Source of the DNA: the human T2T-CHM13v2.0 reference genome, Homo sapiens
DNA: 64,000 bases
Direction: 5' to 3'
Assembly: GCA_009914755.4 (NCBI GenBank)
Contig: CP068257.2
Coordinates: 16,672,001 to 16,736,000 of the forward strand
Each line of letters starts with the position of its first letter. Position 1 is the first letter of the stretch. The notes under the pieces are model-generated. The model was not told the origin of the DNA. It ran no database searches and was given only the letters and a program-made list of their open reading frames with translations. The translations under genes and the position numbers were made by a program. Of this stretch, positions 2,930-62,174 are shown piece by piece.

Positions 2930-3040
2930 CACAATCTGCTTCATCTGAGCCATCCTCACAGTGCAGATGACCGTCACAGAGATTCACCAGTGGAACACAC
3001 TCTCCATTTTTACATTGAAAATGGTCTGCCTTGCATGGCT
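2930..3040 (-). CDS. TMPRSS15: TMPRSS15 exon: LDL-receptor class A repeat 2 (E)[36 protein letters not shown]; symmetric phase 1-1
   Basis: Acceptor ttctttccccatag|AGCCATGC and donor GATTGTG|gtatgt on the minus strand. Canonical LDLa signature C-x-FQC-x-NG-x-C-...-CDG-x-x-DC-x-DGSDE-x-x-C. 111 bp with consistent phase. Confidence 0.92.
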
Positions 3041-3123
3041 CTATGGGGAAAGAATGTTTATTGTATAGGATAAAGAAAACACAAATGGATGATTCTGGAG
3101 TACAAATCCCATTTGCTCCCCTT

Positions 3124-3715
3124 TAAACATGAGTCCTTTGCCACAGCTCAAGGTGGAACCAGCTTTGATACTGAGTAAATGAGAGTTAATGGGTGCAGCA
3201 CACCAACATGGCACATGTATACACATATAACAAACCTGCACGTTGTGCACATGTACCGTAGAACTTAAAGTATAATAAAATATATATATATAAAATAATA
3301 AACATGAGTCCTTTGCCACAGCTCAAGGTGGAGCTAGCTTTGATACTGAGTAAATGACGAGTTAGTGGGTGCAGCACACCAACATGGCACATGTATACAC
3401 ATGTAACAAACCTGCACGTTGTGCACGTGTACCCTAGAACTTAAAGTATAATAAAATATATATATATATAAAATAATAAACATGAGTCCTTTGCCACAGC
3501 TCAAGGTGGAGCTAGCTTTGATACTGAGCAAATGACGAGTTAATGGGTGCAGCACACCAGCATGGCACATGTATACACATGTAACAAACCTGCATGTTGT
3601 GTACGTGTACCCTAGAACTTAAAGTATAATAAAATATATATATATATAAAATAATAAACATGAGTCCTTTGCCACAGCTCAAGGTGGAGCCAGTTTTGAT
3701 ACTGAGCAACACCAT
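3124..3715 (+). repeat. Tandem array of ~3.3 copies of a ~178-bp unit built from an L1 3' end (…gttaatgggtgcagcacaccaacatggcacatgtatacacatgtaacaaacctgcacgttgtgcacatgtaccctagaacttaaagtataataaaa) plus ~60 bp of non-L1 sequence
   Basis: Unit starts aaacatgagtcctttgccacagctcaaggtgg recur at 3124, 3301, 3478 and 3657. The overlapping minus-strand ORFs 3041..3715 with near-identical peptides are artefacts of the repeat. Confidence 0.85.
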
Positions 3716-5299
3716 CTACTTGTTTGCTCAGAAAGCCTCAGAAATAGTTTCCAAGCTGATGTGTATGTAGCTTTAGAAGAGTGTGGATGAAACCTCAGAC
3801 ATCTCTTTTGCAGCAAAACTCAGGGAATTTCTAAGAGGTGGCTGAGAGGTTGTCAACTCACCTCTTCCTCGTAATTTCGTTAGTATCTCTTCAATAAACA
3901 AACTCCTCCACCCCAAACGAACATACAAGCAACAACCATTGAACTGTTACTCAAGCACAGAGAGGTCCCCTGGCCTCACCATCCAAATGATACTTCCAAA
4001 ACTTTGTAAGAAAGAAATGTGGAAGTTGTCTGTTGGTGAGATCAAAGTTGGATTGGGTCGGAAACAGAAGGCTCAATTAAAGCTTGGTCAGGCAGGAAAG
4101 GGTAGTTACAAAGAAATGGAAACTTTGCCGTATCGGTAATGTGAAAAGAAGTTGAGGATAGAGCTCCAAACAAGTACAGCAGTGTTGGAGGCATGGGCAT
4201 GTGCTTGGCACATGGAGACACAAAAGGAAAATGAAAAACCTGGGCAAAGAAGAAACTGGGTAGATCTGGAGGCCGTTGGTGGTGGTTTCCAGAGTTTGGG
4301 TTGTGCAAAAAGAGGCCTAGTGGAAACATTCCTTATTTAGAAGCAGCTACTGCTGTTTCCTGAGATTGTTCGGTCTTTAAAAGTTTTGTTCTGGGAGAGC
4401 CCTCATATCACTGGGAGAGAGGGGTTTGCTTCCCTCTTCCAGTGCTTTCTGATTATGGCTTAGGAGGTACAGTTATGTGCTGGAAGGAGAGTAGGAACTC
4501 CATGAGGGCCACTTGGAATTTGGTTCCCTAACAATGGTGATGGCTGTCAGGTGTGGAGAGGCTCAATGTCTTATCCCCTACATGGCACGTGAACAATCAT
4601 ATGGGGAAGCAAAAGCACTTGATAAAAATAAGAAACAGGGAAGCTTCTATTTTGAAAACTATTAGTGACTATTAGTCAATATAATAACATTACTATTACA
4701 TTGCTTTCAAGGAGACTCAGTTCAGGTTAATATGATTTCAGAAACAAATTATAAAAATATCCATGGAGACTTTCTGAATTTATGATGACCAAACATAAAG
4801 CCACTTGAAAGGAATTATTCCTGTTGTTTTAGAATCTAAGTTGTAGACTCACATCTGAGAGTACTGAAAAATACCATTACACTTCTAAAGAGAGGGACTC
4901 AGTATAGCCATACTATACTTATTGAAAAAAATACCAAAAGTAGTCCAGCAACTATCAATATCCATCATCTATTTTCAGCTTTTTAATAAAAGGGCATTAG
5001 AGTATTTTTCTAAAAAATATATTGAATAGAGTATTTGAGGGGGGGTGTTTTTATGGGGGTAAGGGGAGGGTGGTGCTATCCAGCAAACCAAGTGTGGGAT
5101 GCCCTAAGAGAATCAATTCCTAATTGAGTTGCCTGAAAGAAGCAAGGTCAGCATCTAACTCCCTGGCCAAAAGTTGACTACACTGCATAACCACAAGGAC
5201 CAGGCTTTCATGGGACTAGTGTAAGGGCTTTCAGATTTTTTAAAACTCTGACATTAGTATGAAACAGATTTTAAGTAATAACTCTAGGATACACATCAA

Positions 5300-5324
5300 T
5301 GTGTGTGTTTGTGTGTGTGTGTGT
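5300..5324. repeat. (GT)n microsatellite, interrupted
   Basis: gtgtgtgtttgtgtgtgtgtgtgt. Confidence 0.8.
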
Positions 5325-5363
5325 AACTAAATTAAAATTTGCTTTTACTCTGTTCTATTATTT

Positions 5364-5565
5364 CCCATCCCATCCCATCCCATCCCATCCCATCCCATCC
5401 CATCCCATCCTATCCCATTCTATCCTATCCCATCCTATTCCATCCCATCCCATCCCATCCCATCCCATCCCATCCCATCCCATCCCATCCCATCCCATCC
5501 CATCCCATCCCATCCCATCCCATCCCATCCCATCCCATCCCATCCTATCCCAACCCATTCTATTC
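5364..5565. repeat. (CCCAT)n pentanucleotide repeat of ~40 units; reads (ATGGG)n on the gene/sense strand
   Basis: cccatcccatcccatccc… runs for ~200 bp with a few CCTAT/CATTC variants. ORFs 5299..5653 and 5358..5603 are repeat artefacts. Confidence 0.95.
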
Positions 5566-7005
5566 CATAACAAGGCATAAAATTTGTTGGGTAGTGAAAC
5601 CAAATAAATTCATTTCACTACCCTGGTTTTTGATAAATACCAGGATAAACTGAAGTATACTGAAAATATTAATGAGACAGTGACATTATTTTCCTGAAGT
5701 TTGTGGGCAGATAGCTGTGTAAATAAAGATTGGTATCAATTCCTATGAAATGAAATCAGAAGTTAGGAAGTTGGCAAGGTGGACACTGGAAAGATGATCA
5801 GATGACAACTGCCTGGCAGGGAAGCCTGGCTCTAGCACAAAAAGTGGAGGAATGGAACCTGGGGATTAGGGATTCGGAGCTGAACCAGTTTATAAGAGAT
5901 TATTGTACTATAAGAGGTGTATTGTCTATAGTGCAATATTCCAGGGCTGGTGGAACAATGCTCTGAAGAGCTCACAAGTCTGTTTCACAACAGAGCTGGC
6001 ATTTGGCCAGAAGCTGGTGTTTGCCAAATGAAAACTACAATGGTAAAAATAAATAAATAAATAAAAATAAAAACTTCCTATCTTCCAACATTGGAACGAT
6101 GGGAAGATGGGGAAAAAAGGGAAGTGGAAACTAAAACAAAGACAATATTTCCACCCTCCTCTGCCTTAAGTTATTAAGCCAAGGTCTGTGCCTGAGTTGA
6201 GGGATAAAAGAAGCTTTGAATTAGATGATATAAAAGTGTTGATATTATACTTGACTGTTCATTTTAACACTTACAAGTGAGTGTAAGTTACTCAGATAAA
6301 ATGATTTAACACCGGAAGTAACTGAAAAAGTGTAGAGATCTGCCTGAAATATTCAGAGCCGAAAAAGGAGATTTGAATTAAAATAGAGACAAATGAACCT
6401 TTTGTTTTGCTTATATGGTCATTGAGGTCAGTCATTCTGTAAACTGAATATACAATATGCCAGCTGTAATACCCATAAAGCCATGTTTTCTCATCTTTGT
6501 ATGTCCAGGTCTTGGTGAAATGTCTTTCACAAAGCAGGGAATAAGTAGATATTTTTAAAACATAAAGTAAATTAATGTATGTTAAAAGATTGATATGCCT
6601 CAAAATAAGTATGAAGCTTAGTAATAGAGTCAACGTAATATAAAGCAATTTTTAAAACTATGATTTCAAATAAAGTTTAAAATTTAAGATAATTGGCTGA
6701 CGGTAATTCTAGTGATTTGAAAAAAAGAAACAATTTTATGAATTATGAAGATATAATTTACTTAGTTAAATTTCAATAGTGGTTAAGACACAGGACTTAA
6801 AGTAATATGACCTTGGTTGAAGGTGCAATTTAGCCATTTCTTTTAATATTTCTTTGACCTTGGGCAAAGAAATTAGCCTGAGGCTCAGTTTCTTTGTCAA
6901 TAGGAGTAAATACTACTTTTGTCTTTGGTGTGTCAGGAGAACAAATTTTATAAGATAATGAAGTGTATTTATCATACCAATACATATACAGAGAATACGC
7001 AGTAG

Positions 7006-7366
<361 letters not shown>

Positions 7367-8947
7367 TTTCACTATTTTTCAAGTTAACATTTTTACTCCA
7401 TGTGCTAGTTGTGCTGTTTCTCCCTACGAATAACAAAATAAATAAGAAAACATACCTAATCCTTTCCTCTCAGTATCTTACAACAATAATTGGAGCTATT
7501 TGTATACTCTACTTTAAGCTTTGAAGAAATCTGTATTTTTTCATCTGAAATCTAAGTTACCTTAACAAGAAAATATTTTTAGAAAGCCATGGCTGGTTGT
7601 TTCTACAAACCTTTATACCATGAGAAAATCTGGTTACATATCTCAAAATATAATGCTATTACGGAGGTTCTTGAAAATGTAATTATCAATTTGTTTCACA
7701 AACATATTTTTAAACCAGATTAGTGAGATGACAAATGGGCAGAGATAATTACAGATTCTAAAGACAGCATTAATACTTTGACTATATATTTTATCTTTCT
7801 GGTATTAATTTTCCTTTAGAAAATTGGAAGTCTTAAATGTAGGTAGAAGTGTTTGTATTCATATATTCTGTCTTAAATATATATTTTAATATACTTTATT
7901 TAAAAAGTTGACAGCATGAATTACATGTCCATGATCAATTATATTGATATACTTACAGAATGTTAGTCACCACCCTTTATTTTTAAATTATCTTATTACT
8001 TTTTTCATAGCTTACTGAAATCACTATGTAAAAAATGAATTCTCAATGACAATAATTTAATCTTATATACATTTACTGATAATTTTACCCTTTTACTAAT
8101 GTAGATAGGCAACATTTAATTTGAAAATCACATACGAGTTGAATGGAAACAGACAAATATCTGAATTAAAATTTAAATGATAACATAAAAATGTTTTAAA
8201 AATGTAATTCATTTTTGTGCTCTAGCTGAAGCTGTTAGGGTTATATTCTATGAATCCAGAAAAATAATAACTTGTTTCTATAAGCTGAATGAACTGGATG
8301 AAAAAATGCTGAATGGGGAAAACTGATCTATTGTTACTGAACTGAACAGAAATTTTAAAATCTGAGAAGTATAAATAAGCTCTTTCAAAATTTTCCTTAC
8401 ACGCATAAACTGGATTCTGATTTTTTGCAACATACAATAGTTCAGCTTCATTAAGCAGTCTTTAATCCAACAGTTTAACTCTCTCTGGACTCTTGAAATC
8501 TTATTTCTGATAGTTTTATGCCCATGGTGAGAGAAAGAAAAAGAAATATTGCTAAGAATTGAATTTCCCCATCTCCTTTTTATGAAGTCTCCAGTAGCGT
8601 TGCCTCATTTAGTAACATACGCTTGGTTTAAAATGGAACGAAATTGATCTCTAAGCACATGCCACACAATCTGGGGAGGGCTCAAACCCCCTAAATGTAA
8701 TCAGCTGCTACTTCCACAGTTGCCTGATAAACACTGTTGAATTCCATCGTTAAGACTCTGAGTATCAGAAAAGAGGAATAAGGGGACATTTATAGGAGAC
8801 AGATCTTAATAAATCTATATTACATATACTTTATTACAGTAGAAATGGAAATGTTAGGAACATAGTACAAAGAAAATAAGATACAAAAATACACTATACA
8901 ATTGTGTTAAATTTCAACTGGATGCTTGGAAGGTGGCCCTAAAATAG

Positions 8948-9288
<341 letters not shown>

Positions 9289-9849
9289 GCAAAAACGATT
9301 TTTGTTGCCCATTTATAATTTTTTCTAAAAGAACCACCAAAGTAAAGTGCCAGGATGTGTGTCCAATCTCGCTTTCCCTTACCAGCTTAATTAGCCTCCA
9401 CAGCCAAGTCCCTGTTTCTGTAATTGCTTTTCAGTCTTTGGGTATAAAAAATCTCGACGGAAGCAGACGGTGCTGATGAAAACTCAATCATTCCATTACT
9501 CACTTCCCAGCAGCATCTGTCCTATGTCTAGGAGGAATGTGAAACCACACTCCCCATGTATTTATCATGCAGTGATGGGCATTGAAGACTCCATTCTAGC
9601 TTCAATCAGGGGGATTTTCCCTTAAAAATAACTTCATACATTACATACTAATTTAACAGTATAAATGAAATCTAGCTATAGGCAAAAGAAATCTAAAGAA
9701 TCTATACACCATAAAATTGGTGTCTTTTGCGTTGAGAGAAATACATTGTACTCTGTTTTTGAGTTTGATCTTGAATCAAAGTTGCTGATATTGTTTTTCA
9801 AAATCTTTGACATTGTGTTAGTTTCATTATAAGAATCTGAGACAGGAAA

Positions 9850-10660
9850 TAAATGCTGATGAGGATGCAGAGAAAGGGGAACATTTATACACCTTTGGTA
9901 GAAATGTAAAATAGTACAGCCATTATGAAAACCAATATGAGGCTCCTCAAAGAACTAAGAAATATAAAAACTAAAAATATAACTACCATATAATTCAGGA
10001 GCCCCTCTGCTGGATATTTATCCAAAAGAAAGAAAAGCAGTATATCAAAGAGATATCTGCTCATCTATGTTTACTGCAGCACTATTCTTAATAGCCAAGT
10101 TATGCAGTCAACGTAAGAGTCCATCAACAGATGAAAAGAGAGAGAGAAAATGGTATCTTTGCATAATGGAATATTATGCAGTCATAATAAATAATGAAAT
10201 CCTGTCATTTGCAACAACATGGAGGAAACTGGAGGACATTATGTTAAGTGAAATTGCCAGGCACAGAAGGACAAATGTTGCATGTTCTCATTCATATGTG
10301 GGAGCTAAATTAATTGATTTCATGAAGATAGTAAATAGAATGGTGGTCACCAGAGGCTGAGAAGGGTAGTGGGGAGGGAGGATAAAGAAGGGTTTCAATG
10401 GGTACCAAAATAGAGTTACATAGAAGGAATAAGATCTAGTGTTTGGTAACACAATAAAATGACTATAGTTAACAATAATTTATGGTACATTTCAAAATAA
10501 CTAGAGAAGACAATTTGGAATATTCCTAACACTTAGAAATAATAAATGTTTGAAGTGAAGAATATTTCGGTTTCCCAGATTCGATGATTATAAATTGTAT
10601 GCTTGTATTAAAATATTACATATACTCCATAAACATGTGTAATTATTATGAGTCCATAAA
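9850..10660 (+). mobile_element. Old L1 fragment (ORF2 C-terminus and 3'UTR), antisense to the gene
   Basis: ORF 10067..10360 translates to L1 ORF2 C-terminal-like MEYYAVIINNEILSFATTWRKLEDIMLSEIARHRRTNVACSHSYVGAKLIDFM. The downstream 3'UTR motifs gaatggtggtcaccagaggctgag…acaataaaatgactatagttaacaataatttatggtac follow. Confidence 0.8.
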
Positions 10661-10860
10661 ACACAATTTAAACAAACTGTAACTGTAACTTTTGATGGAA
10701 GAGATTTGTCTCTGTCTTCCTTTTGACAATCCATTTTCCTCTTTTCAAGTCTTTTCTCCTTTCTCATTTTCAACTTAAAATAGGGGTTTAAAGACCTACT
10801 TTTTCTTAAAAATTTTGTTTCAAGATGCTTTAACTTTTGCAGATGGTGGAATGCCATGTG

Positions 10861-11217
10861 CTGTTAGTTTGTTCTCATGCTGCTAATAAAGACATACCTG
10901 AGACTAGGTAATTTATATGAAAAAGGAGAATTAATGGACTTGCTGTTCCACAGGGCTGGGAGAGCTTCATAATCATGGCAGGCAAAAGAGGAGAAAGGCA
11001 CATCTTACATGGCAGCAGGCAAGAGAGAGCATGTGCAGGGAAACTCCTTTTTATAAAACCATCAGATCTCATGAGACTTACTCATTATCATGAGAACAGC
11101 ACAGGAAAAACCCACCCCCATGACTCAATTACCTCCCACCAGGTCCCTCCCACAACACATGGGGATCATTACAATTCAAGGTGAGATCTGGGTGGGGACA
11201 CAGCTAAACCAAATCAC
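10861..11217 (-). mobile_element. MaLR solo LTR (THE1/MST-like), minus orientation
   Basis: Reverse complement begins tgatttggtttagctgtgtccccacccagatctcaccttgaattgtaa… and ends …ttattagcagcatgagaacaaactaacag, the canonical THE1/MST termini. Confidence 0.75.
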
Positions 11218-12711
11218 CTATAATTATTTCAATTGTTTGGATACCTCAATAAATCTAATCCCTTATCTGTTAGAGCACAGTATTTTTTTAAAAAATCTCA
11301 ATTACTTCAGGTTTTACTATTTATCTCAGTTTCTTTAAAAGTATAATACTTCTTTCAAAAATCCTTTCCTTGACAGAATTCTTGAAAAAAATTTAGGATG
11401 GCCTCCAGTAGAATAGTATTAGGCATTAGGTATTTACTTGCTCTATTTTATGATATTTTGCAGAAGAGAGTACATAATTTTACTGCATTTAAACAAGCAG
11501 TTATTGAACCTTGTATATTTTTTAGTTGTGGGATTTTCTCCTTAAAACATGAGAAATATTACTTCATTGTTTTAATGTTCATAATTGAGAGAAATATAAA
11601 GCTGATCTTATTTTCAATACTTACAAAAATAATTTTACTTTTTCTGCTAAGAATTTTCAGAAAAATTTCCCTCTTGAAATTTAAAACTTCACACAGAAAA
11701 TGTTATAACACTGATTCTTGCTCATTAATTTTTTTTTTATTGAACACACTAAGACTTCACGATTTTTCAGGTAATTTTATTCAGATCCAGAAAGCGTATA
11801 ATTTTTCTTTCATTGTATCTTTCACTATTAGTTTTGATCTGCTTTTATGTTTTCAATTTCAGGAATGTTTATTGTTTTCAAATTTGGTTTGGTGTTTTTT
11901 CCTGCATGCCCATTACAGACTCTCATATGTTTCTGTCTCTCTTTACTTATCATTTTTTCATTCTTCATCATGCTTTCCTGCAGCAATTTTTGTGGAAATG
12001 TGTGTGTTCTGCACAAGAGGTTTTGAATTGTTGTGCATTAGACCAGAAAACTAGGTGGTTCACACTGCTAACAAAGGCCTCTAGTCAAATCAGAAAGATT
12101 TTATTATGGCAGAGTTTCACAGAAAATTGCTATGGCCAAAGACGGCCATCTTCTTCCAAATTTCTTGAAAGGAGACTTTATTGTAACGTCACTTGTGGGA
12201 GCTGGTACTGTGCAAAGACTATTCTATCAGGAGCCAAATATTATATAATAATTTAAAAAATTAGGGTCATAATTTTACATATAAAAGTATTGGTGGTAAC
12301 ATTTTGTGTTTTTCTGTCAACTAAAGTTTGCTATTAACTAATTTACTTTCTATATAACAGTAAGAAAGATTTAGCTTTTCTCCAACATTACATAACCAAA
12401 GTCTGCTGTATCTTAAATGTGCTCAGTATTAACTACCAAAATGTCCTCAGCTATGTCCATCACCCTTCTATACTTTAAAAGTGTAACTCAAATGTTGAAT
12501 TAAATTAAAATAATAGGTACACCACAAACAGAAGGAAACTGAAATAGCAGATAAAATAATTGGCAAACAAACATGGTTATAGTATAATCATCAGCAACAA
12601 AATAATCAAGAAACAAAATCAGTGATTCAATTCAAGATGACATTTTCAAAATTATCTTGATTAACATTTTCCAAAGCAATGATCAAATTTTCTTCTAAGT
12701 TAAATTCTCGC

Positions 12712-12733
12712 CACACACACACACACACACGCT
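12712..12733. repeat. (CA)n microsatellite
   Basis: cacacacacacacacacacgc. Confidence 0.8.
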
Positions 12734-13424
12734 TATGTAAATACATATCTATTGATATTTGCATCTCAATGTATTTTGTTCTTTACCTAACAAAATCATG
12801 TCATTTTCTGTATTTCTTCTTTTTAGTGTACTCTAAGATAAATTATAATTTTGTGTAGATCTCAAAGTATTTACTCATTGTTTTTTATTGATCCATGTCA
12901 CTGTTGCTTGTAAGTAAACAGATTGGCTTCTAAAATCAGTCACAAAATCCAGATTAATCGATTGAGCTACCACTTACTTCTACCTAAGTAGCATGCATAA
13001 TATCAGTTGTGCTTCATTTTCAGGGCCAGATGGTAGACCTCTTTATCTGCCATAAAGATTAAGGCAGGCAGCTTTCTGGGATGGTGTCAAAAGCCCTGGT
13101 CAGTTGTGAGTGGAGGAACAAAGATAAACATAACCTAATAGTAACTGGATTTTGTATTAGATAATAGGCCAGATGAAGATGAACTATCCAACCCTACCTC
13201 TTTTCTAGATATTCAAGTGAAATACATCAATTCCATAAATATTTCTCTTCCTATGGAAGAGAAAGAGAGATGTAGGAAGTAGCATATATTCTGTTTTTCT
13301 GACATATTTGCACCTGGAAAGAACCACTGAGTTGCCGGGCAGTTCTATGAGACAATTCATAGTCCAAGTGAAGTATCAAGTTACAAAAAAATTCTCTGCA
13401 GATTGTTGAATGCAAATATATGCA

Positions 13425-13500
13425 AATACTAGATATATGAATATATATATCCATATTCACATATATCCATATATATACACACACATATATACATATATCC
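13425..13500. repeat. AT/CA-rich low-complexity simple repeat
   Basis: atatatgaatatatatatccatattcacatatatccatatatatacacacacatatatacatatatcc. Confidence 0.7.
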
Positions 13501-14070
13501 ATGATGAACATGCCGCTATTTTGTTTGCTCCTGTTGATTATTTTATGGATATACTAAAACACCTAGTGTCGGAGGGTTGGGCACGCCAGCAAATAGCATT
13601 AAATTCCTACACTGTGGTGCTTTACTCTGGTTGTCTCCAATAAGTTAATGATGTTAATTATTTAATTGAATGTTGTTGGCATGCCAACAGCTCTCTTGCC
13701 TGTTTCCTTCTTTGCTCTCTGAAAATGTTCTTGATATGGGAAACATGACAGTCTTCTTTCCTTAGAGGGTCAAGTATCCTACTTTTAACATTTAACATGG
13801 CCCTCTTCAATGAACAAAATTCAACACTCCTTACACATCAGAGAAATCCAAGTAGGTCTGCTTAAAAACTTTTGTGGCTGCCTACTTTGAACGAACTCAG
13901 GTAACGGTACTACAGATGTAAAGGAGGAAAAATCATCTTCATTAAGATGAGGAAGAATAAGTGTCACAGAAGGAAAGCATTAAAATCATGATTTTGGCCT
14001 TGAAATTCTGTACACCTTTGCTGTTTTGCTCCAAAAGTTATGATGCAATGTGTGATTTATGGGCTCCTAC

Positions 14071-52794: not shown

Positions 52795-52903
52795 CGTATG
52801 ATCCACTGGCAGACAACACTTGTTTCAGAAGGTTTTGGATAATGAGTAGCCTGGAAAGACCCAGATGATCCAGTTAACAAAAATCTTCCATCACAAACTG
52901 TGG
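52795..52903 (-). CDS. TMPRSS15: TMPRSS15 exon: CUB domain 1, N-terminal (A)TVCDGRFLLTGSSGSFQATHYPKPSETSVVCQWII(R)
   Basis: Acceptor tcgttttgcag|CCACAGTTTG and donor ATCATACG|gtaata. CUB start motif C.G…G.F.S..YP. Phase 1 in, phase 2 out. Confidence 0.9.
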
Positions 52904-53104
52904 CTGCAAAACGATGCCAATTAATGTTAGACAAAAACAATCTTGGGATTCAAATTGGCTGCAAAACATTTCACAGAATATTCATGGCAAAACCTGTACA
53001 AGGTTATTTTATGAAACTGAAATGATAGTAAGATTTCATGTTTGAAACCTATTAGCCATGTTCAAATACTCATACACATCCTATCGTGAAATATTTTGGA
53101 AAAA

Positions 53105-53396
53105 TTCTTTCTTTCTCTCTCTCTCTTTCTCTCTTTCTTTCTCCTTCCTTTTCCCTTGCTTCCTTCCTTCCTTCCCTCCCTCCCTCCCTTCCTTCTTTCC
53201 TTCCTTTTCTCTCTTTCTTTCTCTCTCTTTCTCTCTCTCTTTTTCCTTCCTTCCTTCTTTCCTTCCTTTTCTCTTTCTTTCTCTCTCTTTCTCTCTCTCT
53301 TTTTCCTTCCTTCCTTCCTTCCTTCCTTCCTTCCTTCCTTCCTTCCTTCCTTCCTACCTTCTCTCTCTCTCTTTCTTTCTCTTCTTTCTCTTTTTT
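53105..53396. repeat. ~290-bp pure polypyrimidine tract (CT/CTTT/CCTT)n on the + strand, i.e. a (GA/GGAA)n polypurine tract on the gene strand, with an internal ~65-bp duplication
   Basis: ttctttctctctctctctttctctctttctttctccttcc…(ccttccttcc)n…ctctctctctctttctttctc runs straight into the Alu T-run. ORFs 53058..53520 (poly-S/L/F or K/E/R peptides) are artefacts. Confidence 0.95.
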
Positions 53397-53690
53397 CCTT
53401 TTTTTTTTTTTTTTTGAGACAGAGTTTCGCTCTTGTTGCGTGTGCTGGAATGCAACGGCGCGATCTCGGCTCACTGCCTCCTGTGTTCAAGTGATTCTCC
53501 TGCCTCAGCCTCCGGAGTAGCTGGGATTACAGGCGGCGGTCACCACGCCCGGATAATTTTTGTATTTTTAGTAGAGACGGGGTTTCACCATGTTGGCCAG
53601 GCTGGTCTCGATCTCCTGACCATAGGTGATCTGCACTCCTAGGACTCCCAAAATGCTGGGATTACAGGCGTGAGCCACTGCGCCATGCCC
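53397..53690 (-). mobile_element. Alu (AluS/Y-like), full length
   Basis: T-run, then gagacagagtttcgctcttgttgcgtgtgctggaatgcaacggcgcgatctcggctcactgc…ggactcccaaaatgctgggattacaggcgtgagccactgcgccatgccc. Confidence 0.9.
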
Positions 53691-56600
53691 AAAAGCATTG
53701 TCTTTCTAAACACCCTTCCCTAAGCTGCACTTTAAGTGTATTCTTCCATATTTGCAAGGAAATAAATATATCTGAATTGAAAACTGCCAGTTCAGACAAA
53801 TAACCAGTCATTTTTTGTCTTATTTTTATAATTAAATTGGAGCTAGGTGAATTTCAAATATATGTACAAAGTGCTATGTTTTCTTGAAAAAGATTAGAAT
53901 AAGGCCAGGAAAATGTTAGTACTAGTGGCCTATACAGAATTCCATCCAACAAATCTGTTAGTCCATCTTTTAAAGCTCATTACTCTTGCTCCTTTGGGAG
54001 ATAACTAGTTCAATGTTTTCTATATTTTCATTCAATACTCCTGATTAAGCCTTTTGCTTTCCATAATTACTCATTTTCCTCTTTTGGTTTTCATAGTAGA
54101 TTTATTTCATGAATCTCTCCTTAATGTCATGCATTATTAGTTGCCTTTAATTTATATCTGAATAGATTCCAACTAGATTAAAATCTTCTTGAAGGCATGA
54201 ACCAGGAGCCATAACTTAGAGATTTTTGTTTTTTTCATACACTTGCTATGTATAGTATATGCAAAAATCCACCTTGATTTTCACAACTTTTAGTCTTTCT
54301 TACATTATTTTCCTTCTAGTTAGTTACTTGGTTATGTTGACACAATATTCTAAAATTATGACCCTTACAATGTGTCTTTTTCTCTGCATAGATTAAAAAT
54401 TCTTCATACGGAGAAACATTAATGGAGGTTAGAAAAATCAAAGTAATATGTCAAAATTAATTTGCTGTGTTTGGAATCTGAGTGTTTAGAATAAGCTAAT
54501 TCTAAACTGAGCTATGAAAAAGCTCATCGTAAAATTATAAAGTGATTCTATCAAATTACATAATACAAGCTATTTTATGACAAAATATTTTATGTATATA
54601 AAATAAATACATTAAAAATTAGATAGCAAATAGAAATCTTGATTAAAATATCATGTGTTTATTGGGTTTTTGCTTTTTTTTGGTATATATATATTTTCAG
54701 GTGCATAAAAATTTACTTTGGTAACTTAAGTTTATTATTCAAAGTCTGCTTAAAAACAATGGCCTAGGAATTAATTCATTAGCTTATGATTTGGTAACCT
54801 GATTTCCAGAAGAAAAAAAGAACGAAAATAAGAAAAGAAAAGATAACAAGTCAAGAAGCAAGGATTAAATTCTGAACAATCCGGCACAGATCACAGGAAA
54901 GAAAGAAAAATAGTGGTTTGTTAACTGAATTGCCTTATGCATAATGATTACTGCAACAAACAAAGAAAATTAAGGCTAATTTGTCATGATTTGAAGATAG
55001 ATAGTAAAATATGTGACTTTTTAATGACTTGCTAAATAATTTTCCAGTTGTAAAAGCAAATCTCTTTTCTCACCTTCAACGCTCTTTTCCACTGTAAACC
55101 ATGCCAAACAAGCAGGGCAATTAATGCCTTACATTCAAAGACCATAAAAACAAAAATGGCATTTGCTTGCATTTTATGTGGTATATAAAGCTTTTAAATC
55201 ACAGTTTGTCGAGAAATAACATGGACTCAAAGATTGTAGACAGTGTAGTAAAGTCTACTGCTATTGTAAAGTTTATATTTGAGTTACAATACTTAGGAAG
55301 CAATGAGGTAGGGTGCTCAATCTTATCAGTGCTAAAATATAACTGCCAACATTTATAGAGTGTTTACTATGTGCCGGTCATTTTCTAAAGTTATTATATA
55401 TGTATGAATGTAATTTGCATAACAACTCTATGATGTTATGGGGGAAACTGAGGCACATATGGGTTAAATAACAACCATAAGGCCTCCTAGCTTACAAGCA
55501 ACAATTTAAAGCAAGGCAGCCTTATTCTAGAGCATACTGTGGTATATTGCCTAATATCACAATATATATATACATCTATCACTATCGCAATGACATCACC
55601 CACTCTTTGAACTGAAAAGCAGGGGGGAAAGCATAAATAAAAGAAGAAACAGAAAATTTTTTAAAGATTTCCATCTTTTTCAATGTTCTTAAAGTTAGAA
55701 TACAGATCACATTTGCAATAATATTCCAGAACAAATAGGAGGATGCAAAAGAGACACACACAGAGAGAGAAAGGGAACAAAACAAGATCCCTTTAAGCAT
55801 CTGTAAAAACCTGTTTGTAAAGCTGATAAAATTTTAGTCATTTTTCCCACCTGTTCACTACGCATTTTTTTGGGAAAGGTATCAACAGCTTTGCGCTGCA
55901 CAATGTGATTCATGATTTCCAGAAAGCCATGTTACGTCTCTAGTTTCAAAGATGGTTCTATGTTTGACAAACCCTCTTTCAGTTCTTTCCTGAGCACATG
56001 ACTAAACTACACTTCCCCAAATCCCTTGGAGTCAGATAAGGTCATGTGACTGAGTTGGCCGATGAACGATTGTAAAAGTCACTGTGTCTATTTCCAAATA
56101 TGGTTTCTGAACATATCTGTAACATTCTTCCTTTGTCAGTCAGCTGGTTGTGAAGGATCCAGTAGAGGACTCTGGGGGCAGAGAGAGTGGCAAGTAAGGA
56201 GCAGGCATCCTGAATGCCTAGAGCACAACCCTTTGCCATCTTTCTTGCACCGTGATATAGGTGATAAATAAACTGTTATTGTTAAGATTGTTTATCATAG
56301 TATTTAGCCTGTCCTAAAGAATATGATCAATTTTCCTGTCCAGTATTCTATCATGTTACTAAGTTTTAGTGGGAATGGATACTCCACAGGTCAAATTCTG
56401 CTCTAACGAGGCTCTAGTCAATTCCTGCATTCAAGCAAATATAGAGAATATTCCTAAATGTATTTAAAATAAAATTACAGGAGTATTGAAGTATTTCTAA
56501 TAGCAACGCTCAGAATGCCAAAATATTATCTTCTCAAGACAGAGGCTTGTGTAAGGCACTTTCTTATACATTTTTTTCATTTAATTTCAGGATGTTTCTG

Positions 56601-59600
56601 GAGAACCTGATAGTGCAAATGACCATGAATGAAGCAGGATAGGTTTTCAGGAAAAAATATATGACCCAGTTGTGGATGAGTAGGATGACTGGGTGTTTAG
56701 GATTGTGACTTATTAGACTGTGCAGTGCTTTCTAGTGCAGCATCAGAAAAAAAAATCTAAGTAGAACATAAATGAGCCTGTCAAATTATAGCAGCCATTC
56801 GATTGCACTATCAGAAATGTTGCCTGTAATAGGATGGAACACATAAGGGTAAGCACTTAGGACCCACGAAGAACTCCCTCTGCTGGCTGAATATTCACTA
56901 ATTGTGTCTTTGCTCATGGCATTCAAATCTCCAGGATATATAAATCAAACATGATCTATGCTCACCCACCAAGCTGTATTATGCATATACACGTGAGGCA
57001 TACAAACTATGAGAACACTTGCCAACTTCCAAAGAGTTAAGCATTGGCTTAAAGGCTGTGAATCAGCATCTTTCCTTTTCATAGGTCAGCTAAAAAGTGA
57101 ACTTTCCTGCTGATGTAATTCTAATCAGAAGACGAAAACAATTTAAAGAAATCTTGTTTCAGCTATAGTCAGCTGTAAGTGTGCAAACCTAAATAACTAA
57201 AGAGTAAAAGAGGAAGTTGCATGAGGAAGACAATGTTAGTATGACTATCAATAACACAAACCAGAATTAGAGCTCACAGCTGGAGCAAAAAAATAAATAA
57301 ATCAATAAGAGAGAGAGAGAGAGTAAAGGTAAACTTCATATTGGAAAAATTCTCTTAAATTAGTTTTATAAATTTTTCCATGAATATAGATTGATGGACA
57401 GTGGCTTTCAGGTGGAAATAATGCTGCTGGAAGTTTGAGCTGGTGCTGAAAGTCATTAGGCTTGTGGGCTCACCATAATCAATGAATGAAGCAACTTAAA
57501 ATGAATAAAGCAACTTGTACTCTTAAATTCTCTCTGGATAAAAATAGATTCATTGATTGATTTAAACAATATTATCCCACAAATAATTCGAATTTATTTA
57601 CCAAAATAGATATAATACTTACTTAAACAAAAAAAAAAAAAAAAAAGAAAATCAAGAAAATGGAAAGTGACGGTGTGTAAGCTTGAGAGAGTTAGTGACA
57701 TGAAAGGCTGGTCACTACTAAGGTTCAATTAACAAAAAGTCTTCATGTTACTAAAAAGTAACAACGCAGTTTGACTATATTTTTAAAGCAAATTAAGATA
57801 ATTACTTCCATTCTAATACTGAGGCTCATCTCCTGAGTTTAGAGTGGCTCATAAAAATGATTCATAGCATTAAAACTTATTTTAGGACAAATTATCACAC
57901 TTACATGATATTCCTATGGTTCATTTTTATATGCACTGATATTAGTTCATCATGAAAATTATGAACTCCATGAGCATAATAACAAAATAATAGGTACAGT
58001 ACATTTTTCAATTATTTGATTCATATATTTTGGTAGTTATGCCTTTTCCTCTATTTAAGGATATTGATCATCATTATATTGGCTTAAAGCCATGTGTCTA
58101 AGTTGACATACACTATTATTTTTGAAACAGAAATCAGCATCACCTTTGTTACCTCATGATGGCACACTTGCATCATATTCTCCCTGAAAAGATTTTGGAA
58201 AATGCCTGAAAGCCACAGCAAAGCAAGAACATTGCTTTCTTCTTCTTTGAGTAACTTAGTTATATAAAATAGATTAAAAATATTCCGCAGCCTGCACTTT
58301 CTTCCAATATGTTCTGAGTGTACTTCAAAGTCTGTAGTTAAACTTTAAAGGTCTGAATTTTATCCAAGAACATTTGCATCGGGATTGCTTAGTGGAAATC
58401 TCTGTAGTAGAGTTGCCTTTCATTGAGTTGGTACCGGGAAACAGACCAAATGCCTGGCTTTTAAAATGTGTACTAAGTGGATAGGTAGCTTTTAAAACTT
58501 TGGTCGTTATTAGAATATTCATCTTTAATTACTATCAAGCAAGATGAGAAAAGTGTAACAAATAATAGAAAAGTGTAGCAAATAGTAACTATGGTCTTTA
58601 ACACACTTTGGGCACTAACTGTATTTATAGTCAGTTTTAAAACTGATTATAAGCCATACCAAAAAATGTGCAGTTAATACTGTTAAATAAAACAAAATAT
58701 CAGTTAGACTTATCCAAAGTCAGCAGTCTCCCCTTATCCACAGGGGATATTTTCTAAGACCTCCAGTGGATGCCTGAACCATGGATAGTACTGACCCCTA
58801 TATCTACTATGTTTTTTCCTATACATACACACCTACCATAGGAGATTAACAGCAATAATCACTAATAAAATAGAACAATTATAACAATACTCAGAATGAT
58901 GTGCAATTTTATACTTATACATTGTTTATTTCTGGAATTTTCCATTTACTGTGTGTCCTGTGGTTGACAGCAGGTAGTTGAAACTGTGGAAACCACTAAT
59001 AAGGGAGAACTACTGTAGTTCTATGTGGAAATCTTCTTAAATGTGTTACACACAGAAACAAATTACCTATTTAGATGCTGCTTTCTAGTAAACTTTTCTA
59101 AGTGGAATCCAGCTATGAAATGAAGAAATAAGTAAAAGAGTAAATACGTTTAAATCAACTAGAGCCATGCTTGGTATATGGTAACTGCTACTTAAGTGTC
59201 AAATAGTAATAATAATGGTAAAATAATGTTATTGTCATTAACACTCAAAAAATGCCAAAATATACAAATGAAACACAGAAGTTTTACTTATGAGGCATTA
59301 AGTTCTTATTCATATCTTATTTCTACTATTTATAGAACTACAAGAGGCAAATAAAAGGAACAGTCAAAATTTTAATATGGTGCTCAGTGAGTTAGGTACT
59401 GTTAAAATGTTGAAAGAAAAAGACTGATATGATAGTGAAAAAACATGAAAACCATTAGTAAGAAGTGAGAATGTCTATCACAGAAGTCAAATTAATAATA
59501 GTTTGGATTAGTTTAATATAGAGAAGAGATGAAAATGTAGCAACACCCATCCCCACATTTATGACAGACATTGTTAATCACATCTTCCTTTCTGTAGTGA

Positions 59601-59755
59601 TCAAATGGAATTCTGTTTAATTAATTAATATCTTTAATATTATTTATAAAGTTTAGGAAAATATTAATAAAATTATTTTAAGATTTTGTATTATATTTTA
59701 AAAATAGCTATTTAAATAGCTCATTCTTCAGTAGTTTCAGGTATTTGAGATTAGA

Positions 59756-59757
<2 letters not shown>

Positions 59758-59807
<50 letters not shown>
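59758..59807. repeat. Perfect (GT)25 microsatellite, (AC)25 on the gene strand, at intronic positions +54 to +103 from the donor of the LDLa-1 exon
   Basis: gtgtgt…(50 nt uninterrupted) seen directly. The exon 3' end is at 59861 on the minus strand. Confidence 0.97.
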
Positions 59808-59808
<1 letters not shown>

Positions 59809-59860
59809 TACAGTGAGGGAGGATAAAACAGAAGGGGAGAGAGTAGGGGGGAGAACTTAC

Positions 59861-59992
59861 CACACATTTTATTGTCTTCGTCAGAACCATCTGGACAGTT
59901 TACTTCTCCATCACAAAATAAATCAGCTTTTATACACGTTAGAGCATCAGTACAAGGACTTGAACCAGGCAGGCACTCTATTGAGACATTTC
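59861..59992 (-). CDS. TMPRSS15: TMPRSS15 exon: LDL-receptor class A repeat 1 (G)NVSIECLPGSSPCTDALTCIKADLFCDGEVNCPDGSDEDNKMC; symmetric phase 1-1
   Basis: Acceptor attttttaaag|GAAATGTCTC and donor AAAATGTGTG|gtaagt. LDLa signature CDGEVNCPDGSDE. The upstream SEA-domain exons were not found in 59993-64000. Confidence 0.9.
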
Positions 59993-61859
59993 CTTTAAAA
60001 AATAACTGAAATTAATTTCCAATTGATGAGATATGTACAATGTTTAAATATTTAATAGGCCTTTTTGCCACTGGGGTTCTTACTTATAAGTATGTTCTTC
60101 AACTGCCATAGGAATATTTATTTCATTTGCAAATCAATCATTTGTAAAATTAGAGCATTTTAAATTTTGAAATTTCATGTGGGGCAATTTTGGAAAGCTT
60201 ATCACATCATCTGCAACATCTAGCAGCCACTTCATTTACTCATAAGCTTATTATTTGAAAATATAGTGGCTTAAGTCAAGGTTTCCATTCTGTAGAGTAC
60301 ATTTACCAACCAAAGTCATTTTAAAGTAAGATAAGCACTTAAAATTCCCAGTGCATTGTGACATTGAACAATGAAGAAACCTAATAGCTATTTCTGTTCA
60401 GTATCTCTTTGTTCCTTGGGTCAGAGATTCTTAGGGGGTACACTGTAAACACACCCCTGCGGGGTTTCATGCCATCTTCTGGAGGGTATCCGAAAAACTT
60501 GCACCTCTCAGCCTGACTTGTCCTTCACTTGCCCCACTTTCATAAACTTAAGTCTAGAGATGCACCAAGAAACACATTTTACTTCTAGAAATTAACTTGG
60601 GAAGTTTAAGAGCAATTCTGAAAATAAGCCATATTCTTATATGCCTACAAGATAAAGACTTTTAAAAAAAATTTTTAGGCCAGTGTGGAAATTTGAATAC
60701 TTCTGCCTCTGAATATAACAACAATGATGGTGAAAAGTTTTGGAACTCTTTAACTCATCAGCATTTTTTTTTCTTTTTGGTTGTTGTTCTTAATCTTAAA
60801 GCCAGAACTGTATTGCCATCTGCTGGGTTTTCAAAATATGAAAATCTGAAATTTCTCCTTCTGCTCTATAAAATTAATTGGAAAATAAAAATGCCCATGT
60901 CAATGAATCTACTAAGTTACTTCTTAATTAAAAACTTTTATAGATTTTTGCTGAGTCTACATACAACTAAATTAGACATTTGTAACTGGCTGTAATTAAA
61001 ATGAATATAAACCAATGGGAAATTCATGGAACGCCCAACATCTAAAATTATAGGACAGAGTAAAGATCAAAGCCATTCTCAAATGATAGAGTACTCCCAT
61101 GTAGGAGAATAATAAATAATAATAAAAATATTATTTAATAAACTCAAATGCATATATTTGTTGATATTTAAGAGCTATTCATCAAAAGTCCTTAACCATT
61201 GAGTTATTAATCCAGAAAACACATATTTCATAGAATCTCATACATGCTTTATAAATAAATAAACCAAATAAAGCACTATACTTAAAACTGTGTCTTATTT
61301 TACAAGTAGCTAATAGAATTCCAAGTATTCAGCATTTCAAAGATGAATTTGGGATACAGCTAGGAACATATATCACTTTGGCTGTCCTAATGCTTCTCAT
61401 GGGAGCTCCACTTCCTGATGTATCACATCTCTGTTCAGTATCTGTTGAACTCTTGATTAGACCCCAAAACCACACCAGCAAGTCATACCACTTGGACTTG
61501 ACTGATCTCATGATTAATCATTTATTGACCCCACAAGTATTTATTTTGTACACATTTTTGTCATGGAATTTTAAGAGACAGAGATAAAAGAATGAGTAAG
61601 GCAGAGCCTCTCTCTTTTTATGAAGCTTCAAGTTAAGTGGGGGGAAATTGTTTATGTACAAATTATATTTTAAAGAGAGATTTAAAAAGTGCTATGGGGG
61701 CATCAAAGTTTAAGCAATTAGTTTCCTTCTAAGGCAAGAATTAAAGACATTTTTACAGAAATGGTCATATTTCAATTAGTTTTTGATGTACACCTAGAAA
61801 GGCACCAGGAGGAGAGAGATATGGAATGTATTTAGTGATGTGTGAAGAGTACATCAATA

Positions 61860-62174
<315 letters not shown>

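What the first reader, a model, noticed from the sequence alone, without database searches (positions are those of the whole stretch)
59758..59861. Perfect (AC)25 tract 54 nt downstream of the LDLa-1 exon donor: candidate hnRNP-L-type splicing modulator and length polymorphism
On the gene strand the intron begins gtaagttctcccccctactctctccccttctgttttatcctccctcactgtagac and is immediately followed by 25 uninterrupted AC dinucleotides. Intronic CA repeats close to 5' splice sites are established hnRNP L binding enhancers or silencers (for example NOS3 intron 13), with activity that scales with repeat number. Uninterrupted tracts of 20 or more units are nearly always length-polymorphic in human populations. 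The adjacent exon is phase-symmetric, so modulated skipping would keep the reading frame.
Basis: partly seen in the sequence, partly recalled or inferred. Interest (0 to 1): 0.55.

Follow-up and report, generated by a model that had tools for sequence, protein, structure and literature searches.

The report
Ordinary intronic CA microsatellite in TMPRSS15
A perfect 25-unit AC repeat lies 53 bases into the intron after the first LDL-receptor-like exon of the human enteropeptidase gene (TMPRSS15); it expanded in primates and could bind the splicing protein hnRNP L, but nothing found here shows that it controls splicing.

Summary
On the minus (gene) strand, window 59807..59757 reads (AC)25A with no interruption. 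It starts at intron position +54, after a 132-nt, phase 1-1 exon (59992..59861). That exon encodes LDLa-1 of enteropeptidase. The spliced exons of the window translate to 496/496 identity with the human enteropeptidase heavy chain in the PDB.

By sequence, the tract is an optimal single-stranded hnRNP L site at a distance like the one in NOS3 (eNOS). Several results argue against a working splicing switch:
- The donor is strong: GTG|gtaagt, 4th of 12 donors in the window.
- An Old-World-monkey-like contig has an interrupted tract. Two more distant mammals have only a short CA-rich seed or nothing, yet keep the same 132-nt exon and a strong donor.
- There is no conservation peak around the tract.
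- There is no pseudoexon and no credible RNA structure.

Length polymorphism could not be tested. The only other human contig and the monkey contig both break inside the repeat. I found no locus-specific literature.

Best reading: a neutral slippage microsatellite that expanded in primates, with at most a small enhancer-type effect. Interest is low.

The parts
59757..59807 (-). Perfect (AC)25A microsatellite (51 nt), intron positions +54 to +104 of the intron that follows the LDLa-1 exon
   Evidence: TRF gives 25.5 copies at 100%. Confirmed by regex and by reading the sequence. Predicted 88% unpaired in the pre-mRNA context.
59808..59860 (-). 53-nt spacer: donor gtaagt followed by a 79% pyrimidine stretch (contains CUCUCU) that ends in ...cctccctcactgtag
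   Evidence: Composition A6 C22 G5 T20. U1 duplex of GTG|gtaagttc is -9.1 kcal/mol. Pyrimidine richness is kept in three other mammals: 39/53, 39/53 and 32/53.
59861..59992 (-). LDLa-1 exon of TMPRSS15 (enteropeptidase), 132 nt, phase 1-1, encodes (G)NVSIECLPGSSPCTDALTCIKADLFCDGEVNCPDGSDEDNKMC
   Evidence: Identical to PDB 8zj4_A/8zi4_A over residues 1-40. Pfam Ldl_recept_a, 32.9 bits. Boundaries resolved. The exon is 132 nt in all four species.
59993..60017 (-). Acceptor region aattaatttcagttattttttaaag| with a comparatively poor polypyrimidine tract (12/18 pyrimidines at -20..-3; A at -3 to -5... i.e. three A before the AG)
   Evidence: Joint second-weakest of the 13 acceptors in the window. 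Orthologues score 13/18 (L001), 14/18 (L002) and 15/18 (L003).
52904..59860 (-). The whole intron that holds the repeat, 6957 nt and AT-rich. It also holds an Alu-tail-derived polypurine tract of about 300 nt near its 3' end (53105..53412).
   Evidence: Junction resolution and intron lengths; polypurine tract.
52795..52903 (-). Next exon (start of CUB1, ATVCDGRFLLTGSS...). Joining it directly to the exon upstream of LDLa-1 would keep the reading frame.

Best explanation
The tract is an ordinary (CA)n·(TG)n microsatellite in an intron of human TMPRSS15. It grew by replication slippage, in the primate lineage, from a short CA-rich seed (ACACACAAACACA) already present at this position in other mammals. 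In human it is now pure, and therefore probably very mutable.

In duodenal enterocytes it is transcribed as a single-stranded (AC)25 stretch 53 nt past a strong 5' splice site. By sequence it should be coated by hnRNP L (inferred, not shown).

The most likely functional consequence is none, or at most a small, length-graded, eNOS-type stimulation of 5' splice-site use and intron removal. The LDLa-1 exon stays constitutive.

Shown: the sequence, the gene, the exon structure, splice-site strength, the lineage-specific expansion and the lack of RNA structure. Inferred: hnRNP L binding, polymorphism and neutrality.
For: - The window is human TMPRSS15. The spliced CDS gives 496/496 identity to PDB 8zi4_A, and a human-derived contig in a JGI metagenome is 2331/2331 identical.
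- Orthologous position (alignment A1). The L001 contig is 93.7% identical over 2 kb, which is Old-World-monkey-like. It has tagACACACAAACACACACACACACACA and then ends. L002 has only ACACACAAACACATAT followed by the conserved flank. L003 has ACGTACACATAC.
- All four species keep a 132-nt exon and a strong donor, -9.1 to -10.8 kcal/mol.
- Human-L002 identity in 50-nt bins is 48-84% across the introns, with no peak at or next to the tract.
- The donor ranks 4th of 12 in the window.
- No Rfam family matches. No donor-like site follows the pseudo-acceptor within 500 nt. The repeat is 88% unpaired.
- CA repeats are among the commonest human repeats (PMC5959245).
- Bound hnRNP L mostly represses through exonic or nearby CA motifs, and showed no position-dependent activation in T cells (PMC4647460).
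Against: - The tract is the optimal hnRNP L ligand. It sits near the 5' splice site, as does the (CA)19-38 enhancer in NOS3 intron 13.
- The exon's acceptor is among the weakest in the window (12/18 pyrimidines). The two primates with the long repeat have weaker acceptors (12 and 13 of 18) than the two mammals without it (14 and 15 of 18). That pattern is compatible with a compensating downstream enhancer, but with only four species it is anecdotal.
- hnRNP L-responsive exons have weak 3' splice sites.
- No expression, CLIP or population data could be consulted, so a quantitative effect is not excluded.
Confidence: 0.7

Rival explanations
1. A length-dependent intronic splicing enhancer of the eNOS type. 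hnRNP L bound to the (AC)n at +54 stabilises 5' splice-site recognition and exon definition for an exon with a poor acceptor. Short alleles would then splice less efficiently, giving some in-frame skipping or intron retention.
For: The tract is a high-affinity hnRNP L ligand. The precedent is NOS3 intron 13 (CA)19-38, near the 5' splice site. The acceptor is weak at 12/18, and weaker in the repeat-bearing primates. The repeat is accessible, 88% unpaired.
Against: The donor is already strong. [quoted passage not shown] No skipping isoform is known to me or was found in the held literature.
Confidence: 0.15
2. A silencer. hnRNP L on the repeat interferes with U1 or with exon definition and causes graded, in-frame skipping of LDLa-1. 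The product would be an enteropeptidase isoform lacking that module.
For: The exon is phase 1-1, so skipping keeps the frame. When bound, hnRNP L acts mainly as a repressor. Hui 2005 found two suppressive CA elements among the four it tested.
Against: Documented hnRNP L repression uses exonic CA motifs or motifs that abut or span the splice site. Here the last 132 nt of exon hold almost no CA motifs, and the tract starts 53 nt away. No isoform evidence was found. The PDB constructs of the heavy chain begin with this module, so the module is part of the mature protein.
Confidence: 0.05
3. A DNA-level role. The (CA)n·(TG)n tract forms Z-DNA or another non-B structure. It would act as a recombination hotspot, a transcription-elongation pause site or a weak enhancer, and not as an RNA element.
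For: General literature on microsatellite functions (review PMC5622345). The tract is long and pure.
Against: Nothing specific to this locus. It is not conserved outside primates. None of this can be tested with the tools available.
Confidence: 0.05
4. A cryptic-exon guard. The pyrimidine tract plus tag|ACAC looks like a 3' splice site, and hnRNP L on the CA repeat would repress a pseudoexon that starts at the repeat.
For: The pseudo-acceptor has 15/18 pyrimidines. hnRNP L represses non-conserved cryptic exons through exonic CA repeats (PMC5959245).
Against: No GT with a U1 duplex of -6.5 kcal/mol or better lies within 500 nt downstream. [quoted passage not shown]
Confidence: 0.02
5. An RNA-structure model. 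The exon-terminal UGUGUG (positions -6 to -1) pairs with the (AC)n and hides the 5' splice site, the more so the longer the repeat.
For: There is a perfect 6-bp complementarity, and the number of possible registers grows with n (sequence).
Against: Partition-function folding gives only a 6% pairing probability at n=25 and 11% at n=38. Overall pairing of the 5' splice site does not rise with n; it falls from 0.75 to 0.61.
Confidence: 0.01

Closest known systems
NOS3 (eNOS) intron 13 (CA)19-38 repeat, an hnRNP L-dependent, length-dependent intronic splicing enhancer (Hui et al. 2003, as summarised in PMC5622345 and PMC10078293)
   Same: A pure CA/AC repeat on the sense strand, inside an intron, a few tens of nucleotides downstream of a 5' splice site, with a repeat number in the same range (25 against 19-38).
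   Different: For NOS3, hnRNP L binding, length dependence and polymorphism were shown by experiment. None of these is shown for the TMPRSS15 tract. Here the donor is already strong and the exon is conserved without the repeat.
[quoted passage not shown] 2005; the paper is not held, so it is known here through PMC5622345, PMC3384337 and my own memory)
   Same: The sequence class and the intronic position next to a splice site.
   Different: That class was defined by combining CA motifs with evidence of alternative splicing of the neighbouring exon. No alternative splicing of this exon is documented.
hnRNP L-repressed cryptic exons (McClory, Lynch and Ling 2018, PMC5959245)
   Same: CA repeats as the hnRNP L platform; non-conserved, lineage-specific elements.
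   Different: [quoted passage not shown] Here the repeat is intronic, downstream of a real, conserved coding exon, and no pseudoexon is apparent.
CFTR intron 8 (TG)9-13 repeat, the TDP-43-dependent silencer of exon 9
   Same: A polymorphic dinucleotide repeat next to a splice site whose length tunes inclusion of an exon.
   Different: A different strand and motif (UG, not AC), a different protein (TDP-43, not hnRNP L) and a different position (upstream of a 3' splice site).
Generic polymorphic (CA)n microsatellite markers of the human genome
   Same: A pure dinucleotide tract, non-coding, 25 units long, expanded in a lineage-specific way from a short seed. Short-read assemblies break inside it.
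   Different: Nothing that could be tested here sets it apart, other than its closeness to a donor site.

Membership tests
hnRNP L-dependent intronic CA-repeat splicing regulators (Hui 2003/2005 class) | CA-repeat or CA-rich sequence on the transcribed (sense) strand | tested here: met
   (AC)25A on the gene strand, 59807..59757. The gene strand was fixed by mapping 13 exons.
hnRNP L-dependent intronic CA-repeat splicing regulators (Hui 2003/2005 class) | Intronic location close to a splice site | tested here: met
   The tract starts at intron position +54 from the donor at 59860.
hnRNP L-dependent intronic CA-repeat splicing regulators (Hui 2003/2005 class) | Physical binding of hnRNP L (EMSA, UV cross-linking or CLIP) | not testable with these tools
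   Inference only. The sequence is the SELEX/RNAcompete optimum and is predicted to be 88% unpaired.
hnRNP L-dependent intronic CA-repeat splicing regulators (Hui 2003/2005 class) | The neighbouring exon or intron shows alternative splicing, or splicing that depends on the repeat or on hnRNP L | not testable with these tools
   No RNA data are available. Literature searches found no TMPRSS15 isoform that lacks this exon. Indirect evidence points the other way: a strong donor and the same exon in species without the repeat.
hnRNP L-dependent intronic CA-repeat splicing regulators (Hui 2003/2005 class) | Activity scales with repeat number | not testable with these tools
   This needs minigenes or genotype-stratified RNA-seq.
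Polymorphic (CA)n microsatellite | Uninterrupted dinucleotide tandem repeat of 12 or more units in non-coding DNA | tested here: met
   25.5 units at 100% purity, intronic.
Polymorphic (CA)n microsatellite | Repeat number differs between related species (slippage dynamics) | tested here: met
   Human has a pure (AC)25. The monkey-like L001 has an interrupted tract of at least 12 units. L002 has about 6 units with interruptions. L003 has none.
Polymorphic (CA)n microsatellite | Length alleles within the human population | tested here: inconclusive
   Scans of metagenome, genome and viral contigs found no copy. ORF-based look-ups found one other human contig, L014, which starts inside the repeat. 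Polymorphism is expected from general STR rules (PMC4216929) but was not observed.
LDL-receptor class A module exon (phase 1-1 shuffled module) | The exon encodes one complete LDLa domain with six cysteines and the D-x-S-D-E motif, bounded by phase-1 introns | tested here: met
   Pfam PF00057, 32.9 bits against a cut-off of 24.1. The peptide is C..C..C..C..C..DGSDE..C. Phase 1 at both ends.

The most novel reading that the evidence does not exclude
The (AC)n is a primate-specific, length-polymorphic hnRNP L platform that has become necessary for efficient definition of the LDLa-1 exon, because the exon's acceptor weakened in primates. Short or interrupted alleles would then give partial in-frame loss of LDLa-1, or intron retention, in duodenal TMPRSS15 mRNA. 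That would make the tract a common cis-acting modifier of enteropeptidase output, and so of trypsinogen activation.
Probability: 0.06. Interest if true: 0.45.

Novelty: already known. Interest (0 to 1): 0.15.

Why it matters
If the tract did tune inclusion of LDLa-1, it would be a common multi-allelic variant affecting the enzyme that starts the pancreatic protease cascade. SNP-based association studies tag such variants poorly (Willems 2014). As things stand, its practical value is modest. It is a probable highly informative intragenic marker for TMPRSS15. It is also a place where short-read assemblies break, seen twice here. It also shows a CA microsatellite arising from a short seed next to a conserved splice site. 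The negative result is useful too: closeness of a CA repeat to a 5' splice site is not evidence of regulation.

Tried and rejected
1. Looking for other human or primate copies to read allele lengths.
- A degenerate exon-end pattern in metagenome contigs gave 0 hits.
- A flank pattern in genome contigs and viral contigs gave 0 hits.
- The search for related loci with an alignment of four exon peptides returned only distant LDLa domains at 37-59% identity.

2. The ORF trick. Two ORFs cross the repeat.
- Exact look-ups found nothing.
- A homology search with the antisense ORF found one JGI contig, L014, 100% identical to the window. It begins inside the repeat, so it gives no length information.
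- The monkey contig L001 also ends inside the repeat.

3. Literature specific to the locus.
- PRSS7 + microsatellite and TMPRSS15 + tandem repeat returned nothing relevant. The only STR mention is the unrelated forensic marker D21S11.
- TMPRSS15 + alternative splicing returned nothing on this exon.
- The supplements of the spl-TR catalogue (PMC10078293) are not held.
- Hui 2005, Hung 2008 and Rossbach 2014 are not held.

4. RNA-structure model, exon-end UGUGUG pairing with (AC)n. Rejected: 6% pairing probability.

5. Pseudoexon starting at tag|ACAC. Rejected: no usable donor within 500 nt.

6. A conserved intronic element next to the exon. Rejected: identity is at background level.

7. Structured RNA families. 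No Rfam hit in the whole window.

8. Origin from a transposon tail. Rejected: the seed and both flanks align in a non-primate mammal.

9. TDP-43 binding. Rejected: the sense RNA is (AC)n, not (UG)n.

Full report
**1. The observation**

Reading the window confirms the tract. The + strand has (TG)25 at 59757..59806 followed by T. Tandem Repeats Finder reports 59757..59807, period 2, 25.5 copies, 100% matches, no indels. On the - strand this reads ...cctccctcactgtag(AC)25A ttctaatctc....

It is the only perfect dinucleotide run of 12 or more units in the 64 kb. A first-order Markov model of the window expects about 10^-26 such tracts. It is therefore a slippage product, not a chance match.

The intron begins at 59860 (gtaagt), and the first repeat base, 59807, is intron position +54. 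There are three small corrections. The quoted intron string already includes the first AC. Coordinate 59861 is the last exon base. The last A of the tract (59757) falls just outside the reported range.

**2. What the surroundings are**

The adjacent - strand exon translates to NVSIECLPGSSPCTDALTCIKADLFCDGEVNCPDGSDEDNKMC. This is a Pfam LDL-receptor class A domain (32.9 bits). It is identical to residues 1-40 of the 'Enteropeptidase non-catalytic heavy chain' in PDB entries 8zj4, 8ziy and 8zi4.

I used a remembered enteropeptidase sequence only as a tblastn probe. It located 13 exons on the - strand, and I resolved the junctions at GT/AG sites. The first 12, which are complete in the window, give a 1500-nt spliced sequence that translates to 496/496 identity with 8zi4_A. 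A contig from a JGI metagenome, evidently human DNA, is 2331/2331 identical to window 59780..62110. The window is therefore human TMPRSS15, with the gene on the - strand.

- The LDLa-1 exon is 59992..59861: 132 nt, phase 1 at both ends.
- The intron that holds the repeat is 59860..52904, 6957 nt.
- The next exon (start of CUB1) begins at 52903.
- The upstream intron is longer than 4 kb, because the upstream exon is not in the window.
- The window is 34% GC.

**3. Splice-site context**

The donor is GTG|gtaagttc. Positions -1 to +6 match the consensus without a break. Its duplex with the 5' end of U1 snRNA is -9.1 kcal/mol. That is the 4th strongest of the 12 donors mapped in the window, which range from -4.9 to -10.7.

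The acceptor, aattaatttcagttattttttaaag|GA, is comparatively poor. It has 12 of 18 pyrimidines at -20..-3, with three A residues directly before the AG. That makes it joint second-weakest of 13.

The 53-nt spacer between donor and repeat is 79% pyrimidine and ends in ...ctccctcactgtag. It therefore resembles a 3' splice site (15/18 pyrimidines). However, no GT with a U1 duplex of -6.5 kcal/mol or better follows within 500 nt, so there is no evident pseudoexon.

CA motifs are concentrated entirely in the tract. The exon and the upstream intron have almost none.

**4. Evolution of the tract**

A search of the large protein collection with the exon peptide found three short called ORFs. Their contigs give the orthologous exon and intron start in three other mammals.

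| Contig | Relation to human | Sequence at the orthologous position |
|---|---|---|
| L001 (Logan ERR3274951) | 93.7% nt identity over 2084 nt, a divergence like that of an Old World monkey (the species assignment is my inference) | ...ctgtagACACACAAACACACACACACACACA, then the contig ends |
| L002 (ENA ERZ15610163) | 82% identical over the aligned 45-residue exon peptide | Only ACACACAAACACATAT, followed by a flank that aligns with the human flank |
| L003 (Logan SRR18937436) | 69% identical over the same peptide | ACGTACACATAC, no repeat |

The long tract is therefore a primate-lineage expansion of a short CA-rich seed. The human allele has also lost the AAA interruption that L001 and L002 share. 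That loss makes it pure and, by the general rules, more mutable.

All four species have a 132-nt exon and a strong donor, -9.1 to -10.8 kcal/mol.

In a global human-L002 alignment, 50-nt bins across both introns run at 48-84% identity, with no local peak at or beside the tract. The exon bins are 80-92%. The raised flanking-intron conservation that I would expect around a regulated exon (my own knowledge) is therefore absent.

One pattern fits a compensating role. The acceptor pyrimidine counts are 12 and 13 in the two primates, against 14 and 15 in the two other mammals. With four species this is an anecdote.

**5. RNA-level properties**

Partition-function folding covered the exon, 100 nt upstream and 250 nt past the repeat. 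It predicts that the repeat is 88% unpaired at n=25. It would be accessible to single-strand binders.

The exon ends in UGUGUG, which could pair with (AC)n and mask the donor. The predicted probability is only 6% at n=25 and 11% at n=38. Overall pairing of the donor does not rise with n. I reject that model.

No Rfam family matches anywhere in the window.

**6. What the literature says about the proposed mechanism**

hnRNP L prefers CA repeats and CACA/ACAC clusters. This is shown by SELEX (PMC3384337), by RNAcompete and EMSA (PMC3823766), and by CLIP and crystal structures, as summarised in PMC5959245.

[quoted passage not shown] A follow-up study found several hundred AC microsatellites near alternative exons. 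[quoted passage not shown] From memory, the suppressing cases have the CA element directly at the splice site (Heiner 2010). I could not read those papers here.

Transcriptome-wide work in T cells found no position-dependent activity. Bound hnRNP L mainly represses. Enhanced exons usually lack nearby binding and lie between short GC-rich introns. Responsive exons have weak 3' splice sites (PMC4647460). hnRNP L also represses non-conserved cryptic exons through exonic CA repeats near their 5' splice site (PMC5959245).

Applied to this locus:
- Binding is very plausible.
- The position (+54, intronic) resembles the enhancer precedent more than a skipping silencer.
- The genomic context, long AT-rich introns and a strong donor, is not the one in which enhancement is typically seen.
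- The weak acceptor is the one feature that would make the exon responsive.

**7. Polymorphism**

STR variability rises with a shorter motif, a longer major allele, higher purity and non-coding location (Willems 2014, PMC4216929).

I could not observe it at this locus. Pattern scans of three collections found nothing. Exact look-ups of the two ORFs that cross the repeat found nothing. The one further human contig begins inside the repeat, just as the monkey contig ends inside it.

Those breaks show only that the tract is longer than the assembler's k-mer. No paper in the held library deals with a TMPRSS15/PRSS7 microsatellite, and the supplements of the spl-TR catalogue are not held.

**8. Verdict on mechanism**

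The best-supported reading (about 0.7) is a neutral microsatellite that expanded in primates. It is transcribed within the TMPRSS15 pre-mRNA in duodenal enterocytes and is probably coated by hnRNP L there. It would have no effect, or only a small enhancer-type effect, on removal of a 6957-nt intron whose donor is already strong.

The rivals:
- An eNOS-type length-dependent enhancer with a measurable effect: about 0.15.
- A silencer causing in-frame LDLa-1 skipping: about 0.05.
- A DNA-level role: about 0.05.
- A cryptic-exon guard: about 0.02.
- An RNA-structure model: about 0.01.

Phase 1-1 symmetry is the norm for LDLa, CUB and EGF module exons (my own knowledge), so it adds nothing to the case for regulation.

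**9.

TMPRSS15 is duodenum-specific, and its expression rises in differentiated duodenal enterocytes (PMC9043569; PMC10356619). The hnRNP L CLIP and knock-down data sets in the cited papers come from Jurkat/JSL1, HepG2 and K562 cells. From memory, the GTEx small-intestine tissue is terminal ileum.

A missing CLIP signal or a missing sQTL would therefore not refute the idea. The informative experiments are genotype-stratified duodenal RNA-seq and a minigene length series with HNRNPL depletion.

**10. Novelty and score**

The kind of element is textbook, and the sequence is part of the human reference. Within the held literature, what is new is only the note that this tract sits at +54 of a module exon. 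I rate it as already known in kind, with interest 0.15.

The most novel reading still open (about 6%) is that the repeat has become a required, polymorphic hnRNP L platform that compensates for a weakened acceptor in primates. That would make it a common modifier of enteropeptidase output.

Noticed in passing
window 53105..53412 (same intron, about 200 nt upstream of the CUB1-exon acceptor at 52903): A pure polypurine tract of about 300 nt on the gene strand, (GGAA)n/(GAAA)n/(GA)n. It has grown out of the poly(A) tail of a sense-oriented Alu (…gcgaaactctgtctcaaaaaaaaaaaaaaaaagg). It is a likely polymorphic and triplex-prone tract close to a 3' splice site.
   Followed up: partly
window 5363..5558 and 5300..5324: A (TCCCA)39 pentanucleotide array, (GGATG)n on the gene strand, directly next to a second, imperfect (AC)12 on the gene strand. 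Both lie deep in the 11-kb intron 14070..3041.
   Followed up: no
window 3124..3706: A 178-bp unit repeated 3.3 times at 96% identity. The unit carries sequence that resembles an L1 3' end. The array ends about 84 nt upstream, on the gene strand, of the LDLa-2 exon acceptor (exon starts at 3040).
   Followed up: no
L014 = JGI metagenome 3300032031, contig Ga0326364_1317191, matching window 59780..62110: A metagenome contig that is 2331/2331 identical to the window, i.e. human DNA in a metagenome assembly. One end lies inside the (AC)n and the other inside an Alu. My exact-pattern scan of 'metagenome contigs' for the exon end did not return it.
   Followed up: yes
window 59808..59860 and the orthologous stretches of L001, L002 and L003: The first 53 nt of the intron are 79% pyrimidine in human and include CUCUCU, a PTB-type motif. 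They stay pyrimidine-rich in three other mammals (39/53, 39/53, 32/53), even though identity to human is only 55-72% in L002 and L003 (92% in the monkey-like L001). This may be a conserved compositional feature downstream of this donor.
   Followed up: partly
window 59993..60017 compared with L001 9075..9099, L002 552..576 and L003 1761..1785 (approximate): The acceptor polypyrimidine tract of the LDLa-1 exon is weaker in the two primates that carry the long repeat (12/18 and 13/18) than in the two mammals without it (14/18 and 15/18). With four species this cannot be told apart from coincidence.
   Followed up: partly
window 59756..59998 (+) and 59708..59890 (-): Two spurious ORFs of 80 and 60 aa run through the repeat, as (CV)n and (HT)n. 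Prokaryote-style gene callers do call such ORFs on stray human contigs (P0004 in the protein collection), which adds false 'proteins' to metagenome catalogues.
   Followed up: yes
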